DNA from: an uncultured Collinsella sp.
GTDB lineage: Bacteria; Actinomycetota; Coriobacteriia; Coriobacteriales; Coriobacteriaceae
Direction of reading: 5' to 3'
Assembly (NCBI GenBank): GCA_958437935.1
Contig: CAUBPS010000008.1
Span: 24,754-88,753, forward strand
Length of the DNA stretch: 64,000 nucleotides
Shown here: in pieces, positions 25,454-31,504 of the stretch
Numbering within the stretch: position 1 is the stretch's first letter
Layout of the letters: the number at the start of each line of letters is the position of its first letter
Notes under the pieces: generated by a model
What the model saw: the letters and a program-made list of their open reading frames with translations, nothing else
Database searches by the model: none
Told to the model about the DNA's origin: nothing
Made by a program: the position numbers and the translations under genes

Positions 25454-26806
25454 TTAGGCAAGGAGCCACTTCCATGCGGGCACAACGTGTACCACACCAT
25501 GCTCGCATGGAATATCGGTCTGTTCATCCATGGTAACGATTGCCGACTCGCCAAGATCGAACTGGGCCATCGAGACATCAAGCGCGGCAATTTCGCGCTC
25601 GCGCGTTTTCTCACTTGCCATATCTACACTCACCTGAATCAGGCTATAAGCCCGCATGAGAAGCGCGTCCCCAGCCACAAAGTCCACCTCATGGCTTTTG
25701 CTCTTCTCTTTGATCAGCAGGCGGCAGACCGAGCCGGTCCTCACCGCGGGAGTCCTTCTTCTTAGCGCATTGAACACTGCGGTCTCGAGCCTCTGGCCCT
25801 GGTCCAATGCCGATGCGGGAGAGAATGCTCCAAACATCGCAGGGTCGACAGCGTAGACCTTAGACGCAGACCGCATGTTATTTGCCAGTGAACGCGTGAA
25901 CTCCGGCACAGAAAATAACAGGTAGGCGTCCTCATAATACTCAAGTAAATCGCTGAGCGAATTACGACTGACGGGTATCTGTCTGCTCTTGAACTCGTTG
26001 TACACTTTGTTCACTGACAGCTCTCGTCCCGAAGATGCCATACACCGCGTCAAGAACAGCGATGCCAGGCGAGGGTTCTTGACGTCGTAACGTTCAACGA
26101 CGTCCATGGCGACCGTTCGCGAAGCATATTCCTGTAGTAGCTGAATCGCGTCTGCAGGCGCCTGCTCAAGTGTCGCGATGAATCCCCCTCGTTCAAGATA
26201 CCCGATCAGATGATGTCGAAGCAGCGCTGCATCGCTCGGGGAAAAGGTCGCATCTGGCTCGGGAACGCTCCCCGTCTTATATCGAACGTATTCCGAAAAA
26301 CTCAACGGAAAAAGCTCTCGCACAAGAGAACGACCCCTGAACTCGCTCTTAAGTTCTGAGGACAGCATCTTAGAAGAAGATCCCGTCACATAGACGGTCG
26401 CTTTCTCCGTATCGACTACACGCCGCAGAAACGCACCCCATTCGGGAATTTCTTGGATCTCGTCAAAGAAAATGTAAGCGCCCTCGGTTCGAGCAGCAGG
26501 ATACAGCGCATAGAACGTGTCGAGCACGTCCGCCAGCAGCGATGGCTCATACGGGCGCAAGCGCTCATCCTCAAAATTGAAGTAAAGCATCCGGTCAAGC
26601 TCGACGCCCCGGCTCTGAAGCCGCCGCATCTCCTGATACAGGCGATACGTCTTTCCACAACGGCGGGCCCCCACAATCACATATACGATGTTGTCGCGCT
26701 TTGGCTCCTGTGGGTTTCCTAGATCAAGGTCTCGCTCAAAGACCTGCGGAACCCCCTGCTGTTCAAAGTCCTTTATTTTCTGGGCGATCAAGTCGTTGAA
26801 TGCCAT
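25454..26806 (-). CDS. AAA+ ATPase (AAA_14 + DUF4143 family)
   Basis: GARRCGKT, FFDEIQ, VTGSSS, PLSFSEY, KVYAVD, EVDFV. Confidence 0.85.
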   Translation of the reverse strand: MAFNDLIAQKIKDFEQQGVPQVFERDLDLGNPQEPKRDNIVYVIVGARRCGKTYRLYQEMRRLQSRGVELDRMLYFNFEDERLRPYEPSLLADVLDTFYALYPAARTEGAYIFFDEIQEIPEWGAFLRRVVDTEKATVYVTGSSSKMLSSELKSEFRGRSLVRELFPLSFSEYVRYKTGSVPEPDATFSPSDAALLRHHLIGYLERGGFIATLEQAPADAIQLLQEYASRTVAMDVVERYDVKNPRLASLFLTRCMASSGRELSVNKVYNEFKSRQIPVSRNSLSDLLEYYEDAYLLFSVPEFTRSLANNMRSASKVYAVDPAMFGAFSPASALDQGQRLETAVFNALRRRTPAVRTGSVCRLLIKEKSKSHEVDFVAGDALLMRAYSLIQVSVDMASEKTREREIAALDVSMAQFDLGESAIVTMDEQTDIPCEHGVVHVVPAWKWLLA

Positions 26807-27039
26807 GATTCTCCAATCTTGCTCTCTAGCTAATCAAAATTATAACGATTCTTGATTAGCAGGAGAGCAAGATTATGCGTAACTTGATTAATGGATAAGC
26901 AAGTTTTCTATTAGTGGCCCCTCCCGGAGGATATCGAGCGGCCGAGGGGGGGCAGGCATGGACGCCTCTAGCCGAAAACAAAGTAGCTAAAAAAGCCCCA
27001 TTACAGTTTGAGTCGTCCGAAAGGGCGGCTCTTTTCCGT

Positions 27040-27245
27040 TGCATGGCTATACGATTGAGCCGTACCGGTGGTCGCTGGCCGACCGCCCCGGACGGCCGTC
27101 AGCCCCTGCCCCGTAGAGGGCCCGGGACGTGTTGCCGCCGGGGCGGGAGGTGCCGCGGGGAACGACTGAATAGAGATGTGCCGGGCCCGGACCGGGCCAC
27201 GGCCGGGTAATGTGGGTGTTCGCCTCCGCGGCTTACGGCCGGCTC
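27040..27245 (+). ncRNA. Predicted IS110 bridge RNA (ends approximate)
   Basis: Two stem-loops whose internal loops match target (27101-27106, 27124-27131) and donor (27170-27176, 27207-27213) junction sequences. Confidence 0.65.
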
Positions 27246-27262
27246 AAGGGAGAGGATACACC

Positions 27263-28429
27263 ATGCCTGCTGAAGAGATGTCCGTGGCCTACCTTGGGAT
27301 CGACGTCGGGAAGAGCTCGCACAGCGCGTGCGCGCTCGATGCGGGCGGGGGCGTCGCCTTCAGGGCCGAGCTGGCCAACAGGCCCGACGACATCGACCGG
27401 CTGCTCGAGCGTGCCGGCTCCGGCGCGCTGGTCGTCGTCGACCAGAAGCGAAACATCGGCGCGCTGGTCCTCGCGCGCGCCCATGTGCACGGGAACCCCT
27501 GCGCCTACCTGCCCGGATATGCCGAGAAGCAGGCCCGCGGGATGTTCCCCGGCATCGCTAAGACCGACGCCATCGACGCCGAGGTAATCGCGCGCACCGC
27601 GCTCGGCGTGCCCCGCGCCCTCAGGCCGGCGCCCGAGGAGCCCGAGGGGACCGCCTCGCTGCGGATCCTGTCGTCGCAGCGCGAGTTCGCGTCGTCCGCC
27701 AGGACCCGCGCGAAGAACAGGCTCCGCGCGACCCTGCTCGAGGCCGATCCCGCGCTCGAGGGCGCGGTCGACCCGTCTAGCCGATGGCAGGTGTCGATGC
27801 TGGCCAAGTTCGGCGGGGCCGCCGGGTGCTCCGCCGCCGGCTGGCGCAGGTTCTCGAGCGCCGCCAGGCGCGCGGGCGCCCCCGCGGCGGGGGCCAGGAG
27901 GCTCTGGGAGGCGCTGCTGGCCTCGTCGCGCTCGGGAAGGCGCCTGCCGGCCGGCGAGGACGTCGCGGTCCGGATACTCGCCCGGGAGATAGCCTCCCTC
28001 GACGCCGACATCGAGGAGCTCGACTCGCTCGTGGCCGACTCGCTGGCGGGCGACGAGGTCTACGAGTGCCTCCTCACGGTGCCCGGGATCGGCCCCAAGA
28101 CCGCCGCGGCGCTGGTGACGTCGATCGACATATCCGCGTTCAGGGGACACGACGAGCTCGCGAGCTACTGCGGCGTGGCGCCGCGCGACAGGCGCTCCGG
28201 GAGCAGCATCAGGTCGACGTCGCCGCAGCACGGCGGGAACAGGCAGCTCAAGAACCCGCTCATATTCAGCTGCAACTCCCTCATCGGCACGGACAACAGG
28301 TTCGGGAGGTACTACGAGGAGTGCAGGGCGAGGGGGATGAGGCACAGCAAGGCGCTGAAGGCGGTCGCGAGGAAGAGGCTCAAGGTCATCTACGCGATCA
28401 TGCGCGACGCCGTCCCGTACGCGGCCTAG
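27263..28429 (+). CDS. IS110 family transposase/recombinase
   Basis: LGIDVGK, VVVDQ, KTDAIDA (DEDD RuvC-like); TVPGIG, YCGVAP, RRSGSS; GAGAGG RBS. Confidence 0.93.
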   Translation: MPAEEMSVAYLGIDVGKSSHSACALDAGGGVAFRAELANRPDDIDRLLERAGSGALVVVDQKRNIGALVLARAHVHGNPCAYLPGYAEKQARGMFPGIAKTDAIDAEVIARTALGVPRALRPAPEEPEGTASLRILSSQREFASSARTRAKNRLRATLLEADPALEGAVDPSSRWQVSMLAKFGGAAGCSAAGWRRFSSAARRAGAPAAGARRLWEALLASSRSGRRLPAGEDVAVRILAREIASLDADIEELDSLVADSLAGDEVYECLLTVPGIGPKTAAALVTSIDISAFRGHDELASYCGVAPRDRRSGSSIRSTSPQHGGNRQLKNPLIFSCNSLIGTDNRFGRYYEECRARGMRHSKALKAVARKRLKVIYAIMRDAVPYAA

Positions 28430-28547
28430 CGGGCGGCGAGGTCAACCGAAGAGGAGGCGGGGGCGCAAGGCGCCCGGATGCGTCGTGCCGAAATGTCGCG
28501 AAGCGCGCGGTTGACAAAACTATAGAGACACGTCCCAAATGAGCTAC

Positions 28548-28748
28548 TTAACGCCAGGGGTCAGCTTCGAAGAGGGGCTCGCGCTCGGGGCGGCGATCGC
28601 TGTAGGGATCGTAGCCGTCGTCGTCCTCGTTCTCGGCACGGATGTAGGGGTCGCGCGGCTTGGGTGCCGGCTTGGGTGCAGGCCTGGGTGCGGCCGGCGC
28701 GGCGTTGGCGACCGGCGCATTCGTCTTGTTCTTGTCTATCATCTGCAT
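28548..28748 (-). CDS. Small 66-aa Pro-rich/acidic hypothetical protein
   Basis: AAGGAG RBS before ATG 28748; DPYIRAENEDDDGYDPYSD motif. Confidence 0.55.
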   Translation of the reverse strand: MQMIDKNKTNAPVANAAPAAPRPAPKPAPKPRDPYIRAENEDDDGYDPYSDRRPEREPLFEADPWR

Positions 28749-28795
28749 ATCTCCTTGCCGTGCAATCGTGTTCAACATCATCGATTGTCGCACGA

Positions 28796-28832
28796 AAAAG
28801 GGCGGCGGACCCAATTAGATCCGCCGCCCTTG
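28796..28832 (-). terminator. Terminator after clpB
   Basis: AGGGCGGCGGA/TCCGCCGCCCT stem with an A-run on the left. Confidence 0.7.
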
Positions 28833-28876
28833 GCGTTTAGAGACGGCTGGTAGATTTTAAGGCATGCCCCAAAAGT

Positions 28877-31504
28877 CTACTCGGCGTCGGGGACCTCATA
28901 GGTGGCCGCCGGCGTGTTGTCGCACACGACGGTAAAGCCGCCGTCCTTGTCGACATCGACCGTCACCTGATCGCCCTCGCGCACCGTGCCGTCGATGATA
29001 GCGGCCGCGATGGCATCCACAACCTCGCGCTGCACCAGGCGCTTGAGCGGACGGGCACCAAAGACCGGGTCCAAGCCGCCCACGGCGAGCATCTGCTTGG
29101 CTGCCGGGGTGATGGCAAGCGTCATGCGCTCCTTGGCCAGACGTGCGCGGACGTCGGCGAGCTGGATGTCGACGATCTTCTCGATCTGCGCCATGCCGAG
29201 CGGATGGAACACCACGATGTCGTCGATACGGTTGAGGAACTCGGGACGGAAAGTCTGAGCCATGGCCGCGTCGACCTGATGGCGCATCTCCTCCTCGTCC
29301 TTGCCGGACAGGTCGGCGATGGCCTTGGAACCCACGTTGGACGTCATGATGATGATCGTGTTCTTAAAGGACACCTGGCGACCCTGGCCGTCGGTCAGAC
29401 GACCGTCGTCGAGTACCTGCAGCAGTACGTTGAAGACATCCGGGTGAGCTTTCTCCATCTCATCGAGCAGGATCACGGAGTACGGACGACGGCGCACGGC
29501 CTCGGTGAGCTGGCCGCCCTCGTCGTAACCCACGTATCCCGGAGGCGCACCGATCAGACGCTGGACGCTGAACTTCTCCATGTACTCGGACATGTCGATA
29601 CGCACAAGCGCGCGCTCGTCGTCGAACAGGCACTCGGCCAGCGCCTTGGCGAGCTCGGTCTTGCCCACGCCGGTGGGGCCCAGGAAGAAGAAGCTGCCGA
29701 TGGGCTTGTCCGGGTCGGAGAGGCCCGCACGGCTGCGGCGCACAGCCGCGGCCACAGCGGAGACCGCCTCATCCTGACCGATAACGCGCTTATGCAGCTC
29801 ACCCTCCAAGCCCTTGAGCTTGTCGAGCTCGCCCTGCATCATCTTGGACACGGGCACGCCGGTCCAGGCGCTCACGACCTCGGCGATCTCATCGGAGGTC
29901 ACCTGCTCGTTGAGGCCCTCGCCGTCCTGCTGCTTTTGAGCCTCGAGCGCAGCCTCGGAATCCTGAATCTGCTGCTGCAGACCCGGAATCACGGAGTAGC
30001 GCAGCTCGGACGCACGGCCCAGATCGCCGTTGCGCGTCGCGCGTTCCTCTTCGCTTCTGGCCTCGTCGAGCTGGCCCTTAAGCTCCTGCACGTGGTCGAT
30101 GGCGTTCTTTTGGTTGAGCCAGCCGGCCTTTTGCACGTTGAGCTTTTCCTGGACCTCGGCAATCTCCTGGCGCAGGGCCTCCAGACGCTCCTTGGAGGCG
30201 TCGTCAGTCTCCTTCATGAGTGCCTGCTCCTCGATCTGCAGCTGGGTGAGCTGACGCGTGGTGGCGTCGATCTCGACCGGCATGCTGTCGAGCTCCATGC
30301 GCAGGCGGCTTGCCGCCTCATCGACCAGGTCGATGGCCTTATCGGGCAGGAAGCGGTCGGCGATGTAGCGATCGGAGAGGTCGGCGGCCGCCACGAGCGC
30401 GCCATCGGTGATGTGCACGCCGTGGAAGATCTCGTACTTCTCCTTGAGGCCACGCAGGATCGAGATGGTGTCCTCGACGGTAGGCTCGCTCACCATAACG
30501 GTCTGGAAACGACGGGCGAGCGCCGCGTCCTTCTCGATGTACTTGCGGTACTCGTCGAGCGTAGTCGCGCCGATTGCGTGCAAGTCGCCACGGGCGAGCG
30601 CCGGCTTGAGGATGTTGCCGGCATCCATGGAGCCCTCGGTGGCACCCGCGCCCACGATGGTGTGGAGCTCATCGATGAACAGGATAACCTTACCCTCGGA
30701 TTTTTGTACTTCCTTGAGCACGGCCTTCAAGCGGTCCTCGAACTCGCCGCGGTACTTGGCGCCGGCGACCAGCGCGCTCATGTCGAGCTCGATGAGGTCG
30801 CGGTCGCGCAGGGTGCTCGGCACGTCGCCGGCCACGATACGCTGGGCGATACCCTCGACGATGGCCGTCTTGCCGACGCCCGGTTCGCCGATGAGCACGG
30901 GGTTGTTCTTGGTGCGGCGGGACAGGACCTGGATGGTACGACGGATCTCGTCGGTACGGCCGATGACCGGGTCAAGCTTGCCGGCGCGAGCCAGATCGCA
31001 GATGTTGCGACCGTACTGCTCCAACGCCTCAAACTGAGTCTTGTCCTCGGCAGACGTCACGCGGTCATCGCCGCGCAGCTCCTCGTAGACCTGCTCGATG
31101 CGCTCCTTGGTGACGCCGGCGTCGCGCAGTACACGACCAGCCTCGCCCTTGTCCTCGGCAAGCGCCATCAGCAAATGCTCGGTCACCACAAAGCTGTCGC
31201 CCATCTTGGCGGCCTTCTTCTCGGCCTTCTCGATGACGCGGACGAGCTCGTTGGACAGGCCCATCTGCTGGCCCTCGCCCGAAACCTTGGGCGCGTGGTC
31301 GATGGCATCCTGTGTGGAGCGCGCGAGCTGGGCCGGGTCGGCACCGATGCGCTCGATGATCACGGAGATATTGCGCTCGCCGGCACCGAGCAGGGCGGAC
31401 AGCAGGTGAATCGGCTCCACCGCGCCGGCCTGCGCGTCGGCAGCCGTGCTCATGGCGGTCTGCAGCGCCTCGCGCGACGTCATTGCTAGCTTATCGATTC
31501 TCAT
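28877..31504 (-). CDS. clpB: ClpB chaperone
   Basis: Two AAA modules ([16 protein letters not shown]), [10 protein letters not shown]-domain coiled coil, GYVGY. Confidence 0.96.

What the first reader, a model, noticed from the sequence alone, without database searches (positions are those of the whole stretch)
26994..28536. IS110 element whose bridge-RNA guides can be read from the sequence
Seen: with core CA, the empty target is AGCCC-CA-CGTCCC and the circle junction is ATAGAGA-CA-TTAC. In the left non-coding end, stem-loop 1 carries AGCCCC (27101) and GGGACGTG (27124, reverse complement of CACGTCCC). Stem-loop 2 carries ATAGAGA (27170) and GTAATGT (27207, reverse complement of ACATTAC). 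Each pair flanks an inner hairpin. Known: this is the target-loop/donor-loop layout of IS621 bridge RNAs. Inference: a programmable recombinase with a CA core. Circularisation would join TTGACA (28511) to TACAGT (27002) with a short 15-nt spacer.
Basis: partly seen in the sequence, partly recalled or inferred. Interest (0 to 1): 0.75.

Follow-up and report, generated by a model that had tools for sequence, protein, structure and literature searches.

The report
Collinsella IS110 element with bridge RNA
An intact jumping gene of the IS110 family in a gut Collinsella genome carries a readable guide ("bridge") RNA; it is an ordinary member of a recently described kind, except that its insertion site and its own joined ends share one base, not two.

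Summary
All four together occurred in 0 of 20,000 shuffles of the left end. The element is an intact, single-copy IS110-family insertion sequence of 1,532 bp (window 27000-28531). It has a 388-aa DEDD/Ser recombinase gene and a structured RNA of about 230 nt in its 263-nt left end. In 18 relatives the RNA stems show compensatory changes. The loop "guides" change together with the flanking target and with the right end across 77 distinct insertions, so the bridge-RNA reading holds.

Empty sites in 5 sister genomes and in 2 metagenome contigs read AGCCCCGTCCC, so only one C is shared between the two junctions. The circle junction is therefore ...ATAGAGACAC|ATTACAG. Its promoter, TTGACA-N17-TACAGT, has a 17-nt spacer, not 15.

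Numbered as in IS621, the target carries CC and the donor AC at core positions 8-9. The left junction keeps CC (66 of 67) and the right keeps AC (76 of 77) across the clade. This fits inheritance of the top strand only. The target lies in the loop of a REP-like hairpin.

Verdict: a new member of a known kind, with a modest twist.

The parts
26983..26988 (+). Left arm (GTAGCT) of the REP-like inverted repeat whose loop is the target
   Evidence: Direct reading. The same hairpin-with-loop family recurs in the own genome.
26991..26999 (+). Left target, positions 1-9 (AAAAGCCCC); the last two bases, CC, are the target 'core' in IS621 numbering
   Evidence: Empty sites. 66 of 67 distinct left junctions in the clade end in CC.
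27000..28531 (+). IS110-family insertion sequence, 1,532 bp (26999-28530 fits equally: one C is ambiguous)
   Evidence: Empty sites in 5 genomes. Contigs in runs X1 and X4 skip 1,532 nt. Other copies share the same ends. No terminal inverted repeats: 8 of 25 terminal bases identical.
27000..27262 (+). Left non-coding end (263 nt) encoding the bridge RNA
27000..27004 (+). Right donor (RD) ATTAC, positions 10-14 of the donor
   Evidence: Complementary to the RDG GUAAU. ATTAC is invariant in the 18 aligned left ends.
27002..27007 (+). -10 hexamer TACAGT of the promoter formed at the circle junction
   Evidence: Direct reading. The scan of the natural right-end/left-end abutment in L070 gives TTGACA-17-TACAGT, 10 of 12.
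27010..27031 (+). 5' stem-loop (9 bp, GAAA loop)
   Evidence: MFE fold. Relatives keep a hairpin here with different sequence.
27074..27081 (+). 5' strand of the closing stem (pairs with 27236-27243) that encloses both binding loops
   Evidence: Helix 2: 5 of 8 pairs have changes on both sides.
27086..27143 (+). Target-binding stem-loop: outer stem 27086-27096 with 27134-27143, an internal loop, and inner hairpin 27108-27123
   Evidence: Helices 3 and 4.
27101..27106 (+). Left target guide AGCCCC, same sense as the left flank (9-nt slot 27098-27106)
   Evidence: LTG differs between classes together with the left flank.
27124..27128 (+). Right target guide GGGAC (pairs with GTCCC, 28532-28536)
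   Evidence: 35 of 38 insertions by elements with GGGAC have flank GTCCC. Other classes have other guides and matching flanks.
27129..27132 (+). GU (complement of the donor core AC) followed by GU (handshake guide for donor positions 6-7, AC)
   Evidence: GUGU or GUGC in all 18 aligned left ends. The roles are inferred from the IS621 structures.
27153..27231 (+). Donor-binding stem-loop: outer stems 27153-27158 with 27226-27231 and 27163-27166 with 27218-27222, and inner hairpin 27180-27203
   Evidence: Helices 5-7: 5 of 5 and 3 of 4 outer-stem pairs have changes on both sides.
27170..27179 (+). Left donor guide AUAGAGA followed by UGU (same sense as right end 28522-28528)
   Evidence: LDG positions 1-6 equal right-end positions 1-6 in 15 of the 16 aligned elements whose right end was read; four different variants.
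27207..27215 (+). Right donor guide GUAAU, then GU (donor core complement), then GG (handshake guide for target positions 6-7, CC)
27263..28429 (+). Recombinase gene, 388 aa (RuvC-like DEDD domain plus Tnp domain with SG serine)
   Evidence: Pfam, PDB, and conserved D / D / D..D / SG in 15 of 15 relatives.
28430..28531 (+). Right non-coding end (102 nt)
28511..28516 (+). -35 hexamer TTGACA, 17 nt from TACAGT once the ends are joined
   Evidence: Direct count: 28517-28531 (15 nt) plus 27000-27001 (2 nt). L070 scan.
28523..28531 (+). Left donor, positions 1-9 (TAGAGACAC); the last two bases, AC, are the donor 'core'
   Evidence: 76 of 77 distinct right junctions in the clade read CAC at positions 7-9.
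28532..28536 (+). Right target GTCCC (positions 10-14)
28542..28547 (+). Right arm (AGCTAC) of the REP-like inverted repeat
   Evidence: Direct reading.

Best explanation
Window 27000-28531 is an intact IS110-family (IS110 group) insertion sequence in a Collinsella genome. It encodes a 388-aa recombinase with a RuvC-like acidic tetrad and an SG serine. Its 263-nt left end encodes a bridge RNA of about 230 nt. When the element is excised as a circle, the right end (...TTGACAAAACTATAGAGACAC) abuts the left end (ATTACAGT...). This builds a sigma-70-type promoter, TTGACA-N17-TACAGT, that would transcribe the RNA and the gene. The promoter is shown at sequence level only; transcription is inferred. 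The RNA folds into a 5' hairpin and two stem-loops with internal loops, held together by a closing stem. In loop 1, AGCCCC has the sense of the left flank and GGGAC is complementary to the right flank GTCCC. In loop 2, AUAGAGA has the sense of the right end and GUAAU(GU) is complementary to the left end (AC)ATTAC. By analogy with IS621, the RNA bridges the circle junction and the target ...AAAAGCC-CC|GTCCC. That target lies in the loop of a REP-like hairpin, and the recombinase exchanges strands after position 9. Unlike IS621, target and donor share only position 9 (C). Position 8 is C in the target and A in the donor. Both 3' guides carry GU, which matches the donor's AC. As a result, in loop 1 two extra base pairs (positions 6 and 8) form only after the donor strand arrives, which would bias the reaction towards insertion (inferred). 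The left junction always keeps the target's CC and the right junction the donor's AC. That is what is expected if the top-strand products are what is inherited.
For: Protein: Pfam PF01548 at 1.1e-31 and PF02371 at 3.5e-18. PDB IS621 (8wt6) at 3.4e-11 and ISCro4 (9t56) at 1.9e-11. DVGK, VVVDQ, K(T/N)DxxDA and SGxS are conserved in 15 of 15 aligned relatives. Boundaries: 5 empty sites; contigs in 2 of 4 runs skip 1,532 nt with 1 shared letter; 33 distinct 15-nt left flanks for the 95-100% identical copies. Structure: in 18 left ends from elements of 39-100% protein identity, 41 pairs are 93.6% paired. 24 pairs have changes on both sides, against 11.1 +/- 1.8 in shuffles (0 of 500 reach it) and 6-11 in slid controls. 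Guides and flanks, across 77 distinct complete insertions: RTG GGGAC goes with flank GTCCC in 35 of 38; GGGGG with CCCCC in 24 of 29; GUUGG with CCAAT or CCAAC in 9 of 10. No class carries another class's flank. LTG GAACGUCC goes with flank GAACGTCC in the third class, and the variant GAAUGUCC sits at flank GGAATGTCC. LDG variants UAGAGA, UAGGGA, UAGGAA and UGGGAA each match their own right end, in 15 of the 16 read. Promoter: TTGACA-17-TACAGT, 10 of 12, at a natural right-end/left-end abutment in L070. Chance: all four motifs together in 0 of 20,000 shuffles. Roles of guides, core and handshake positions are taken from passages of PMC11208160 and PMC11208158.
Against: There is no direct evidence that the RNA is made. 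No run on record as RNA was listed. No contig shows the circle junction. Rfam 15 has no match here. The own genome has a single copy although it holds 14 free AGCCCCGTCCC sites, so current activity is unproven. The left target guide matches only 6 nt, and left flanks vary (AGCCCC in 20 of 37, ATCCCC in 8 of 37). The IS621 rule that a shared core dinucleotide is covered by all four guides is not met: RTG U faces target C8, and LDG positions 7-9 (UGU) face CAC. The cleavage positions and the numbering are carried over from IS621 (about 1e-11 similarity, Tnp domain only) and are not shown for this enzyme. The related genomes are kin, so counts of copies overstate independence. I counted distinct flanks, not copies.
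Confidence: 0.88

Rival explanations
1. The same element, but with a CA core shared by target and donor: empty target AGCCC-CA-CGTCCC, circle junction ATAGAGA-CA-TTAC, promoter spacer 15 nt.
For: CA flanks the element on both sides in the occupied copy (26999-27000 and 28529-28530). GGGACGTG is the reverse complement of CACGTCCC.
Against: All 5 empty sites read AGCCCCGTCCC. Contigs in runs X1 and X4 skip 1,532 nt, not 1,534, with only one shared letter. CCCACGTCCC occurs 0 times in the own genome against 41 for CCCCGTCCC. With the true junction the spacer is the optimal 17 nt (on L070).
Confidence: 0.02
2. The same element and RNA, but the crossover dinucleotide lies one base to the right: target CG, donor CA (26999 plus 28532 in the target, 28531 plus 27000 in the donor). 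The junctions seen would then derive from the bottom strand.
For: Junction sequences alone cannot tell the two registers apart, because only one C is shared. GGGA-CG and GUAA-UG would then each match their own core.
Against: The base after the shared C (G, C or C in the three target classes) changes together with the RNA (GGGAC, GGGGG, GUUGG), so it behaves as a programmable guide position, not a fixed core. The base before it is C in 66 of 67 targets. In this register the loop-2 handshake bases (UG) would pair with their own donor (CA), which blocks exchange in IS621. In IS621 it is position 9 that is nearly invariant and read by the protein, and here the shared C fits that role.
Confidence: 0.1
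3. The left-end structure is only a leader or regulatory RNA (or DNA structure) for the recombinase gene. On this view the matches to flanks and ends are not guides, and the protein alone recognises the REP-like target.
For: No RNA data here. The target sits in a hairpin loop, and a target stem-loop adds specificity for ISPpu10 (abstract of 10.64898/2026.03.19.712850).
Against: Guide positions change while the surrounding stems stay, and they change in step with flanks and with the right end about 1.4 kb away. The hybrid L054 carries one class's LTG and another's RTG, and its flanks follow each (GAGCCC| and |CCCCC). The IS621 precedent is experimental.
Confidence: 0.02

Closest known systems
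IS621 of E. coli (bridge RNA; Durrant et al. 2024, PMC11208160; Hiraizumi et al. 2024, PMC11208158; PDB 8wt6)
   Same: Same protein domains. Long left end encoding an RNA with a 5' hairpin, a target-binding loop and a donor-binding loop. [quoted passage not shown] Promoter split between right and left ends. REP-type targets. Two bases 3' of each right guide can act as handshake guides.
   Different: Protein similarity is only about 1e-11 and confined to the Tnp domain. The RNA is longer (about 230 nt against 177, the latter) and has a closing stem around both loops. IS621 has a CT core in both target and donor, covered by all four guides. Here target CC and donor AC share only position 9. The second acidic residue is D (VVVDQ) where the HMMER alignment to ISCro4 places its E.
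ISCro4 transposase (PDB 9t56)
   Same: Best PDB match by sequence (1.9e-11); IS110-family recombinase.
   Different: I read nothing about its RNA or target. Only the depositor's name and the alignment were seen.
ISEc21 and the seekRNA of IS110/IS1111 elements (Siddiquee et al. 2024, PMC11187229; passages)
   Same: The non-coding region upstream of tnp is needed for circle formation and transposition. Insertion occurs without duplication of target bases. Natural retargeting happens by changes in the target-matching bases.
   Different: That paper treats any duplicated bases as part of the IS and does not discuss a core. In the passages shown I saw no statement about unequal bases at the crossover.
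ISPpu10 and ISPpu9 of Pseudomonas putida (10.64898/2026.03.19.712850 and PMC12288879; abstracts only)
   Same: IS110 elements that insert into repeated intergenic palindromic or stem-loop sequences.
   Different: Here the target lies in the loop of the hairpin, with variable stems and a conserved loop CCCCGTCCC. Whether the stem contributes to recognition is untested.
CazIS110-1 (10.1101/2025.10.25.684509, section read) and the IS621 cell-free study (10.64898/2026.08.31.748434, abstract)
   Same: Both report top-strand or single-strand excision and insertion. The constant CC (left) and AC (right) asymmetry here is what such a mechanism predicts.
   Different: Those are biochemical results on other elements. 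Here there is only a comparative footprint.

Membership tests
IS110 family insertion sequence (IS110 group) | N-terminal RuvC-like DEDD domain (PF01548) | tested here: met
   E 1.1e-31, residues 11-161. D (DVGK), D (VVVDQ; D where the alignment to ISCro4 places E) and DxxD (KTDAIDA) are conserved in 15 of 15 relatives.
IS110 family insertion sequence (IS110 group) | C-terminal Transposase_20 domain (PF02371) with the conserved SG serine | tested here: met
   E 3.5e-18, residues 268-352. SGxS is invariant in 15 of 15. Aligned to IS621 and ISCro4 chains.
IS110 family insertion sequence (IS110 group) | No terminal inverted repeats; long non-coding end upstream of the gene | tested here: met
   8 of 25 terminal bases identical in inverted comparison; longest exact match 5 nt. 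Left end 263 nt, right end 102 nt.
IS110 family insertion sequence (IS110 group) | Site-specific insertion without a multi-base target duplication | tested here: met
   33 distinct left flanks, nearly all ...CCCC| with |GTCCC on the right. Empty sites show a 1-nt overlap.
IS110 family insertion sequence (IS110 group) | Circular intermediate whose junction forms a promoter | tested here: inconclusive
   At sequence level TTGACA-17-TACAGT forms when the ends are joined, and it is scored 10 of 12 at a natural abutment in L070. No circle-junction contig was seen in the 4 runs laid. Needs PCR.
Bridge RNA of the IS621 type | Two stem-loops, each with an internal loop around an inner hairpin, conserved by covariation | tested here: met
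   41 pairs, 93.6% paired. 24 pairs have changes on both sides, against 11.1 in shuffles (0 of 500).
Bridge RNA of the IS621 type | Loop 1: 5' side matches the left target (bottom-strand pairing), 3' side is complementary to the right target, and both covary with targets | tested here: met
   RTG and flank agree in 35 of 38, 24 of 29 and 9 of 10 insertions for three guide classes. LTG classes AGCCCC and GAACGUCC match their flanks.
Bridge RNA of the IS621 type | Loop 2: 5' side matches the right end, 3' side is complementary to the left end, and both covary | tested here: met
   LDG positions 1-6 equal right-end positions 1-6 in 15 of 16, with four variants. RDG GUAAUGU and left-end ATTAC do not vary, apart from one GUGAU in L086, so that half is uninformative.
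Bridge RNA of the IS621 type | A core dinucleotide identical in target and donor and covered by all four guides | tested here: not met
   Target CC against donor AC; only one base is shared. Both right guides carry GU (donor core), LTG carries CC, and LDG carries xU.
Bridge RNA of the IS621 type | Handshake guides that pair with the non-cognate DNA after strand exchange | tested here: inconclusive
   Loop-1 GU is complementary to donor positions 6-7 (AC) and loop-2 GG to target positions 6-7 (CC) in this element. In the third class (GC, GA) the fit is partial. Sequence inference only.
Bridge RNA of the IS621 type | The RNA is expressed, bound by the recombinase and required for recombination | not testable with these tools
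   No run on record as RNA was listed. Needs RNA sequencing and a recombination assay.

The most novel reading that the evidence does not exclude
This Collinsella/Coriobacteriia clade of bridge recombinases works with a one-base common core. Position 8 is always C in the target and A in the donor. The RNA's right guides read only the donor's version, so position 8 acts as an extra handshake base that favours insertion. CC persists at the left junction (66 of 67) and AC at the right (76 of 77) across elements of 39-100% protein identity. I read this as a natural footprint showing that only the top-strand products of bridge recombination are inherited (copy-out and top-strand paste-in). On that reading, identity of the core dinucleotide between donor and target is not a general requirement of these enzymes.
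Probability: 0.4. Interest if true: 0.6.

Novelty: new member of a known kind. Interest (0 to 1): 0.4.

Why it matters
The element itself adds one more natural bridge recombinase with a defined, GC-rich 11-nt target (AGCCCC|GTCCC). Its close relatives have been retargeted in nature (GTCCC, CCCCC, CCAAT), which is useful as a ready-made comparison set.

The more interesting point is the unequal base next to the crossover. With a two-base staggered exchange on both strands and random segregation, the donor's A at position 8 should be lost or should spread to the left junction. It does neither in about 70 distinct insertions. This bears on the open dispute over whether IS110 elements move by double-strand exchange through a Holliday junction or by top-strand transfer. 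It also bears on how strictly donor and target cores must match when bridge RNAs are designed.

Tried and rejected
- Rfam 15 at a permissive threshold on 26500-29000: no match. This says nothing, since a bridge-RNA family may simply not be in the library.
- Other copies in the own genome: only the one, and no second IS110 protein match at E <= 1e-30.
- Sequencing runs: no holder on record as RNA was listed.
- The 4 runs laid are assembled contigs. They gave the empty-site joint but no circle junction. One further joint (27219 to 27422 in X3, side 26 nt, depth 3.5) I take to come from a relative or a misjoin.
- RNAalifold also paired the loop-1 guides with each other (columns 157-161 with 185-189) and AUA of the LDG with UGU of the RDG. 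I left these out of the counted structure. The first pairing holds only where the target is a C-run and breaks in this element and in the third class. The second never varies.
- My idea that LDG positions 7-9 (UGU) pair with the bottom strand by three G-U wobbles holds for this element. In relatives positions 7-8 are A, C or G, so it fails there. Only the final U is constant.
- Literature search for an unequal core (terms IS110, bridge RNA, core, heteroduplex) and passages of six papers gave no description of one. I did not read the supplements of any paper. Extended Data and Supplementary tables of PMC11208160 may list cores for elements like this.
- My first regex table mis-extracted the LDG column. 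I replaced it with the alignment-based table.
Full report
**What is there.**
Between window 27000 and 28531 lies a 1,532-bp, 70.5% G+C segment; the whole genome is 60.2% G+C. Its one long gene (27263-28429, + strand, 388 aa, preceded by GGAGAGGA) matches DEDD_Tnp_IS110 (1.1e-31) and Transposase_20 (3.5e-18). The closest solved relatives by sequence are ISCro4 (9t56, 1.9e-11) and IS621 (8wt6, 3.4e-11), over the C-terminal domain. In an alignment with 14 relatives of 39-84% identity, four motifs are invariant: DVGK, VVVDQ, K(T/N)DxxDA and SGxS. The second acidic residue is therefore D in this clade, where HMMER's alignment to ISCro4 places that protein's E. The ends are not inverted repeats (8 of 25 bases). 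The own genome (31 contigs, 99.6% complete) has this one copy only. Record titles of near-identical copies name Collinsella, mostly C. aerofaciens and uncultured Collinsella.

I ran 20,000 dinucleotide-preserving shuffles of the left end. No shuffle held all four of AGCCCC, GGGACGTGT, ATAGAGA and GTAATGTG, and 40 held two or more. The single-sequence fold is only modestly better than shuffles (z = -2.38), so the structure rests on comparison, described below.

**Boundaries.**
- Five sister genomes have the orthologous locus empty, and all read ...GTAGCTAAAAAAGCCCCGTCCCAAATGAGCTAC....
- Contigs in 2 of the 4 metagenome runs laid on the region join 26998 to 28531, skipping 1,532 nt, with one letter fitting either side.
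- CCCACGTCCC, which the CA model needs, occurs 0 times in the own genome. CCCCGTCCC occurs 41 times and AGCCCCGTCCC 14 times.

The target therefore has no CA, and the two junctions share one C. The joined ends read ...TTGACAAAACTATAGAGACAC|ATTACAGT... That puts 17 nt, not 15, between TTGACA and TACAGT. In locus L070 a relative's right end abuts another left end in just this way, and the scan scores TTGACA-17-TACAGT at 10 of 12.

**Other copies and the target.**
Copies 95-100% identical occur in many Collinsella genomes. I counted distinct flanks, not copies, and found 33 different 15-nt left flanks. Nearly all are ...(A/T)(G/T)CCCC| on the left and |GTCCC(A) on the right. Most sites are loops of short hairpin-like repeats with variable arms. 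Examples are GTAGTCAAAAAAG-CCCCGTCCC-AAATTAGCTAC, ATGATTTTTTAAT-CCCCGTCCC-AGAAAAATCAT and CCAGTCTTTTTAG-CCCCGTCCC-AAAAAGACTGG. The own genome holds many of these unoccupied. No Rfam family matches them above threshold.

**The RNA.**
I aligned 18 left ends from elements whose recombinases are 39-100% identical to this one. RNAalifold gives the following:
- a closing stem (27074-27081 with 27236-27243);
- a first stem-loop (outer stem 27086-27096 with 27134-27143, inner hairpin 27108-27123);
- a second stem-loop (outer stems 27153-27158 with 27226-27231 and 27163-27166 with 27218-27222, inner hairpin 27180-27203).

I counted 41 pairs, leaving out two guide-to-guide pairings that I judge artefacts (see Tried and rejected). 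Of all cells, 93.6% are paired. 24 pairs have changes on both sides, against 11.1 +/- 1.8 in column shuffles (0 of 500 reach 24) and 6-11 when partners are slid. The sequences are related, so the shuffle figure is not a probability. The slid control, which keeps relatedness, points the same way.

**Guides.**
They behave as guides in two ways.

Right target guide. Among 77 distinct insertions for which both junctions could be read:
- elements with GGGAC sit before GTCCC in 35 of 38 (the other three are GTTCC, GCCCC and GCCCA);
- elements with GGGGG sit before CCCCC in 24 of 29 (CCCCT once, CCCCA once, and three abut another left end, ATTAC);
- elements with GUUGG sit before CCAAT (7), CCAAC (2) or CTAAT (1).

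That script required the right end to finish in ACAC, and elements without it (for example L107) were dropped. The third class also has a different left guide, GAACGUCC, and its left flank is GAACGTCC. One copy with GAAUGUCC has flank GGAATGTCC. Free targets of that class...AAGAACGTCCCCAATGACTA..., lie in the same loci.

Left donor guide. It follows the right end about 1.4 kb away. UAGAGA, UAGGGA, UAGGAA and UGGGAA each face the same six bases at the right end, in 15 of 16 elements read; L052 has one mismatch. The right donor guide GUAAUGU and the left-end start ATTAC do not vary, so they say nothing either way. A natural hybrid (L054) has this element's 5' left end and LTG joined to the other class's RTG, donor loop and gene.

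**Register and the unequal core.**
In IS621 numbering (positions 1-7 left arm, 8-9 core, 10-14 right arm, top strand cut after 9), the sequences are:
- target: AAAAGCC-CC-GTCCC
- donor: TAGAGAC-AC-ATTAC

The RNA then reads:
- LTG ..AGCC-CC;
- RTG GGGAC, then GU, then GU;
- LDG UAGAGAU, then GU;
- RDG GUAAU, then GU, then GG.

Both right guides thus carry the complement of AC, the donor's core. Loop 1 ends in GU, complementary to donor positions 6-7 (AC). Loop 2 ends in GG, complementary to target positions 6-7 (CC). This is the arrangement called handshake guides in IS621, where pairs that form only after exchange drive the reaction.

Counting pairs at positions 6-8 gives this. Loop 1 goes from 1 pair before exchange to 3 after. 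Loop 2 stays at 2. The result is a net gain for insertion and a net loss for excision (my inference).

The alternative register, with the core one base to the right, is less likely. That base covaries with the RNA, as a guide position does, and the handshake logic fails there (see rivals).

The asymmetry is constant. With a looser search that did not fix these bases, 66 of 67 distinct left junctions have CC before ATTAC (one, L137, has AC). 76 of 77 distinct right junctions have CAC at positions 7-9 (one degenerate copy, L053, has CGC).

**How I read the asymmetry.**
Suppose both strands were exchanged with a two-base stagger and the mismatch at position 8 segregated at random. The donor's A would then turn up at left junctions and be replaced by C at right junctions, and this is not seen. 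If only the top-strand products are inherited, CC on the left and AC on the right reproduce themselves indefinitely. Two preprints report top-strand or single-strand excision and insertion for other IS110 elements (section read; abstract). Other explanations remain open: a different stagger in this enzyme, biased repair, or selection by the guides for AC circles. In what I searched and read I found no description of such an unequal core. I saw no supplements.

**What is not shown.**
Expression of the RNA, the circle, cleavage positions and present-day activity are all untested here.

**Verdict.**
The element is a genuine IS110-family element with a bridge RNA whose guides can indeed be read from the sequence. 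It is a new member of a known kind. The one-base common core is a modest feature that can be tested at the bench.

Noticed in passing
Own genome contigs (e.g. L196 = G000:C7:98250-98750; L197-L199); occupied copy at window 26983-26999 and 28532-28547: REP-like hairpin repeats with variable, mutually complementary arms and a conserved loop CCCCGTCCC. AGCCCCGTCCC occurs 14 times in the genome, often clustered and in both orientations. Only sub-threshold, generic hairpin hits in Rfam. Their own function is unknown.
   Followed up: partly
Own genome (41 matches to [AG][CT]GTCCCCAA[TC]); loci L081, L103, L112-L115: A second, related repeat family, (T)AGTCATTTAAGAACGTCCCCAATGACTA. It is the target of the third IS class (LTG GAACGUCC, RTG GUUGG). 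The own genome has many such sites but no copy of that IS.
   Followed up: partly
L064-L066 (G338, G004, G292) and 14 more genomes listed with matches to window 26983-27086: A fossil. The first 87 nt of the left end (90% identical), preceded by the usual ...GTAGCTAAAAAAGCCCC flank, sits at one conserved locus in many species. No recombinase gene follows it.
   Followed up: partly
L070 about 2101-2130; L086 and L100 right ends: Three right ends abut ATTAC... instead of a target. In L070 this is the start of another, diverged left end (a tandem arrangement that forms the junction promoter). In L100 the sequence after ATTAC is the reverse complement of the element's own donor-loop DNA. The recombination partner was therefore the DNA that encodes the RDG, which necessarily looks like the donor site.
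   Followed up: no
L054 (G189:C6): A natural hybrid element. Its first ~105 nt of left end, including the LTG CAGCCCC, are of this element's type. The RTG GGGGG, the donor loop, the gene (53% identical) and the right end are of the other type. Its flanks are GAGCCC| and |CCCCC.
   Followed up: partly
L137 (record named): The only left junction with AC instead of CC before ATTAC (...TTTTGGCAC|ATTACAG). The left flank does not resemble the usual target. It may be an off-target event or a rearrangement between copies.
   Followed up: no
Window 27400-27420 (protein residues about 57-61): The second acidic residue of the DEDD tetrad appears to be D (VVVDQ) in all 15 clade members aligned.
   Followed up: partly
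Window 25454-26806 (-), 28548-28814 (-), 28877-31504 (-): The neighbours are ordinary. They are an AAA_14/DUF4143 ATPase gene, an 88-aa ORF with no Pfam match, and a long ORF (875 aa) that looks like ClpB by eye (not searched). The IS sits in the intergenic space between the first two.
   Followed up: no
L198 1-74 (G000:C5:72400-72473, - strand): A bacterial small SRP RNA (49.1 bits, above the gathering score, cut by the end of the locus) lies next to two of the REP-like repeats.
   Followed up: no
Record titles (e.g. L147, L153, L155): In several isolate assemblies the IS forms its own contig of about 1.5 kb. The coverage figures in those contigs' own names are high. The element may therefore be multi-copy in some strains although single-copy here.
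   Followed up: no
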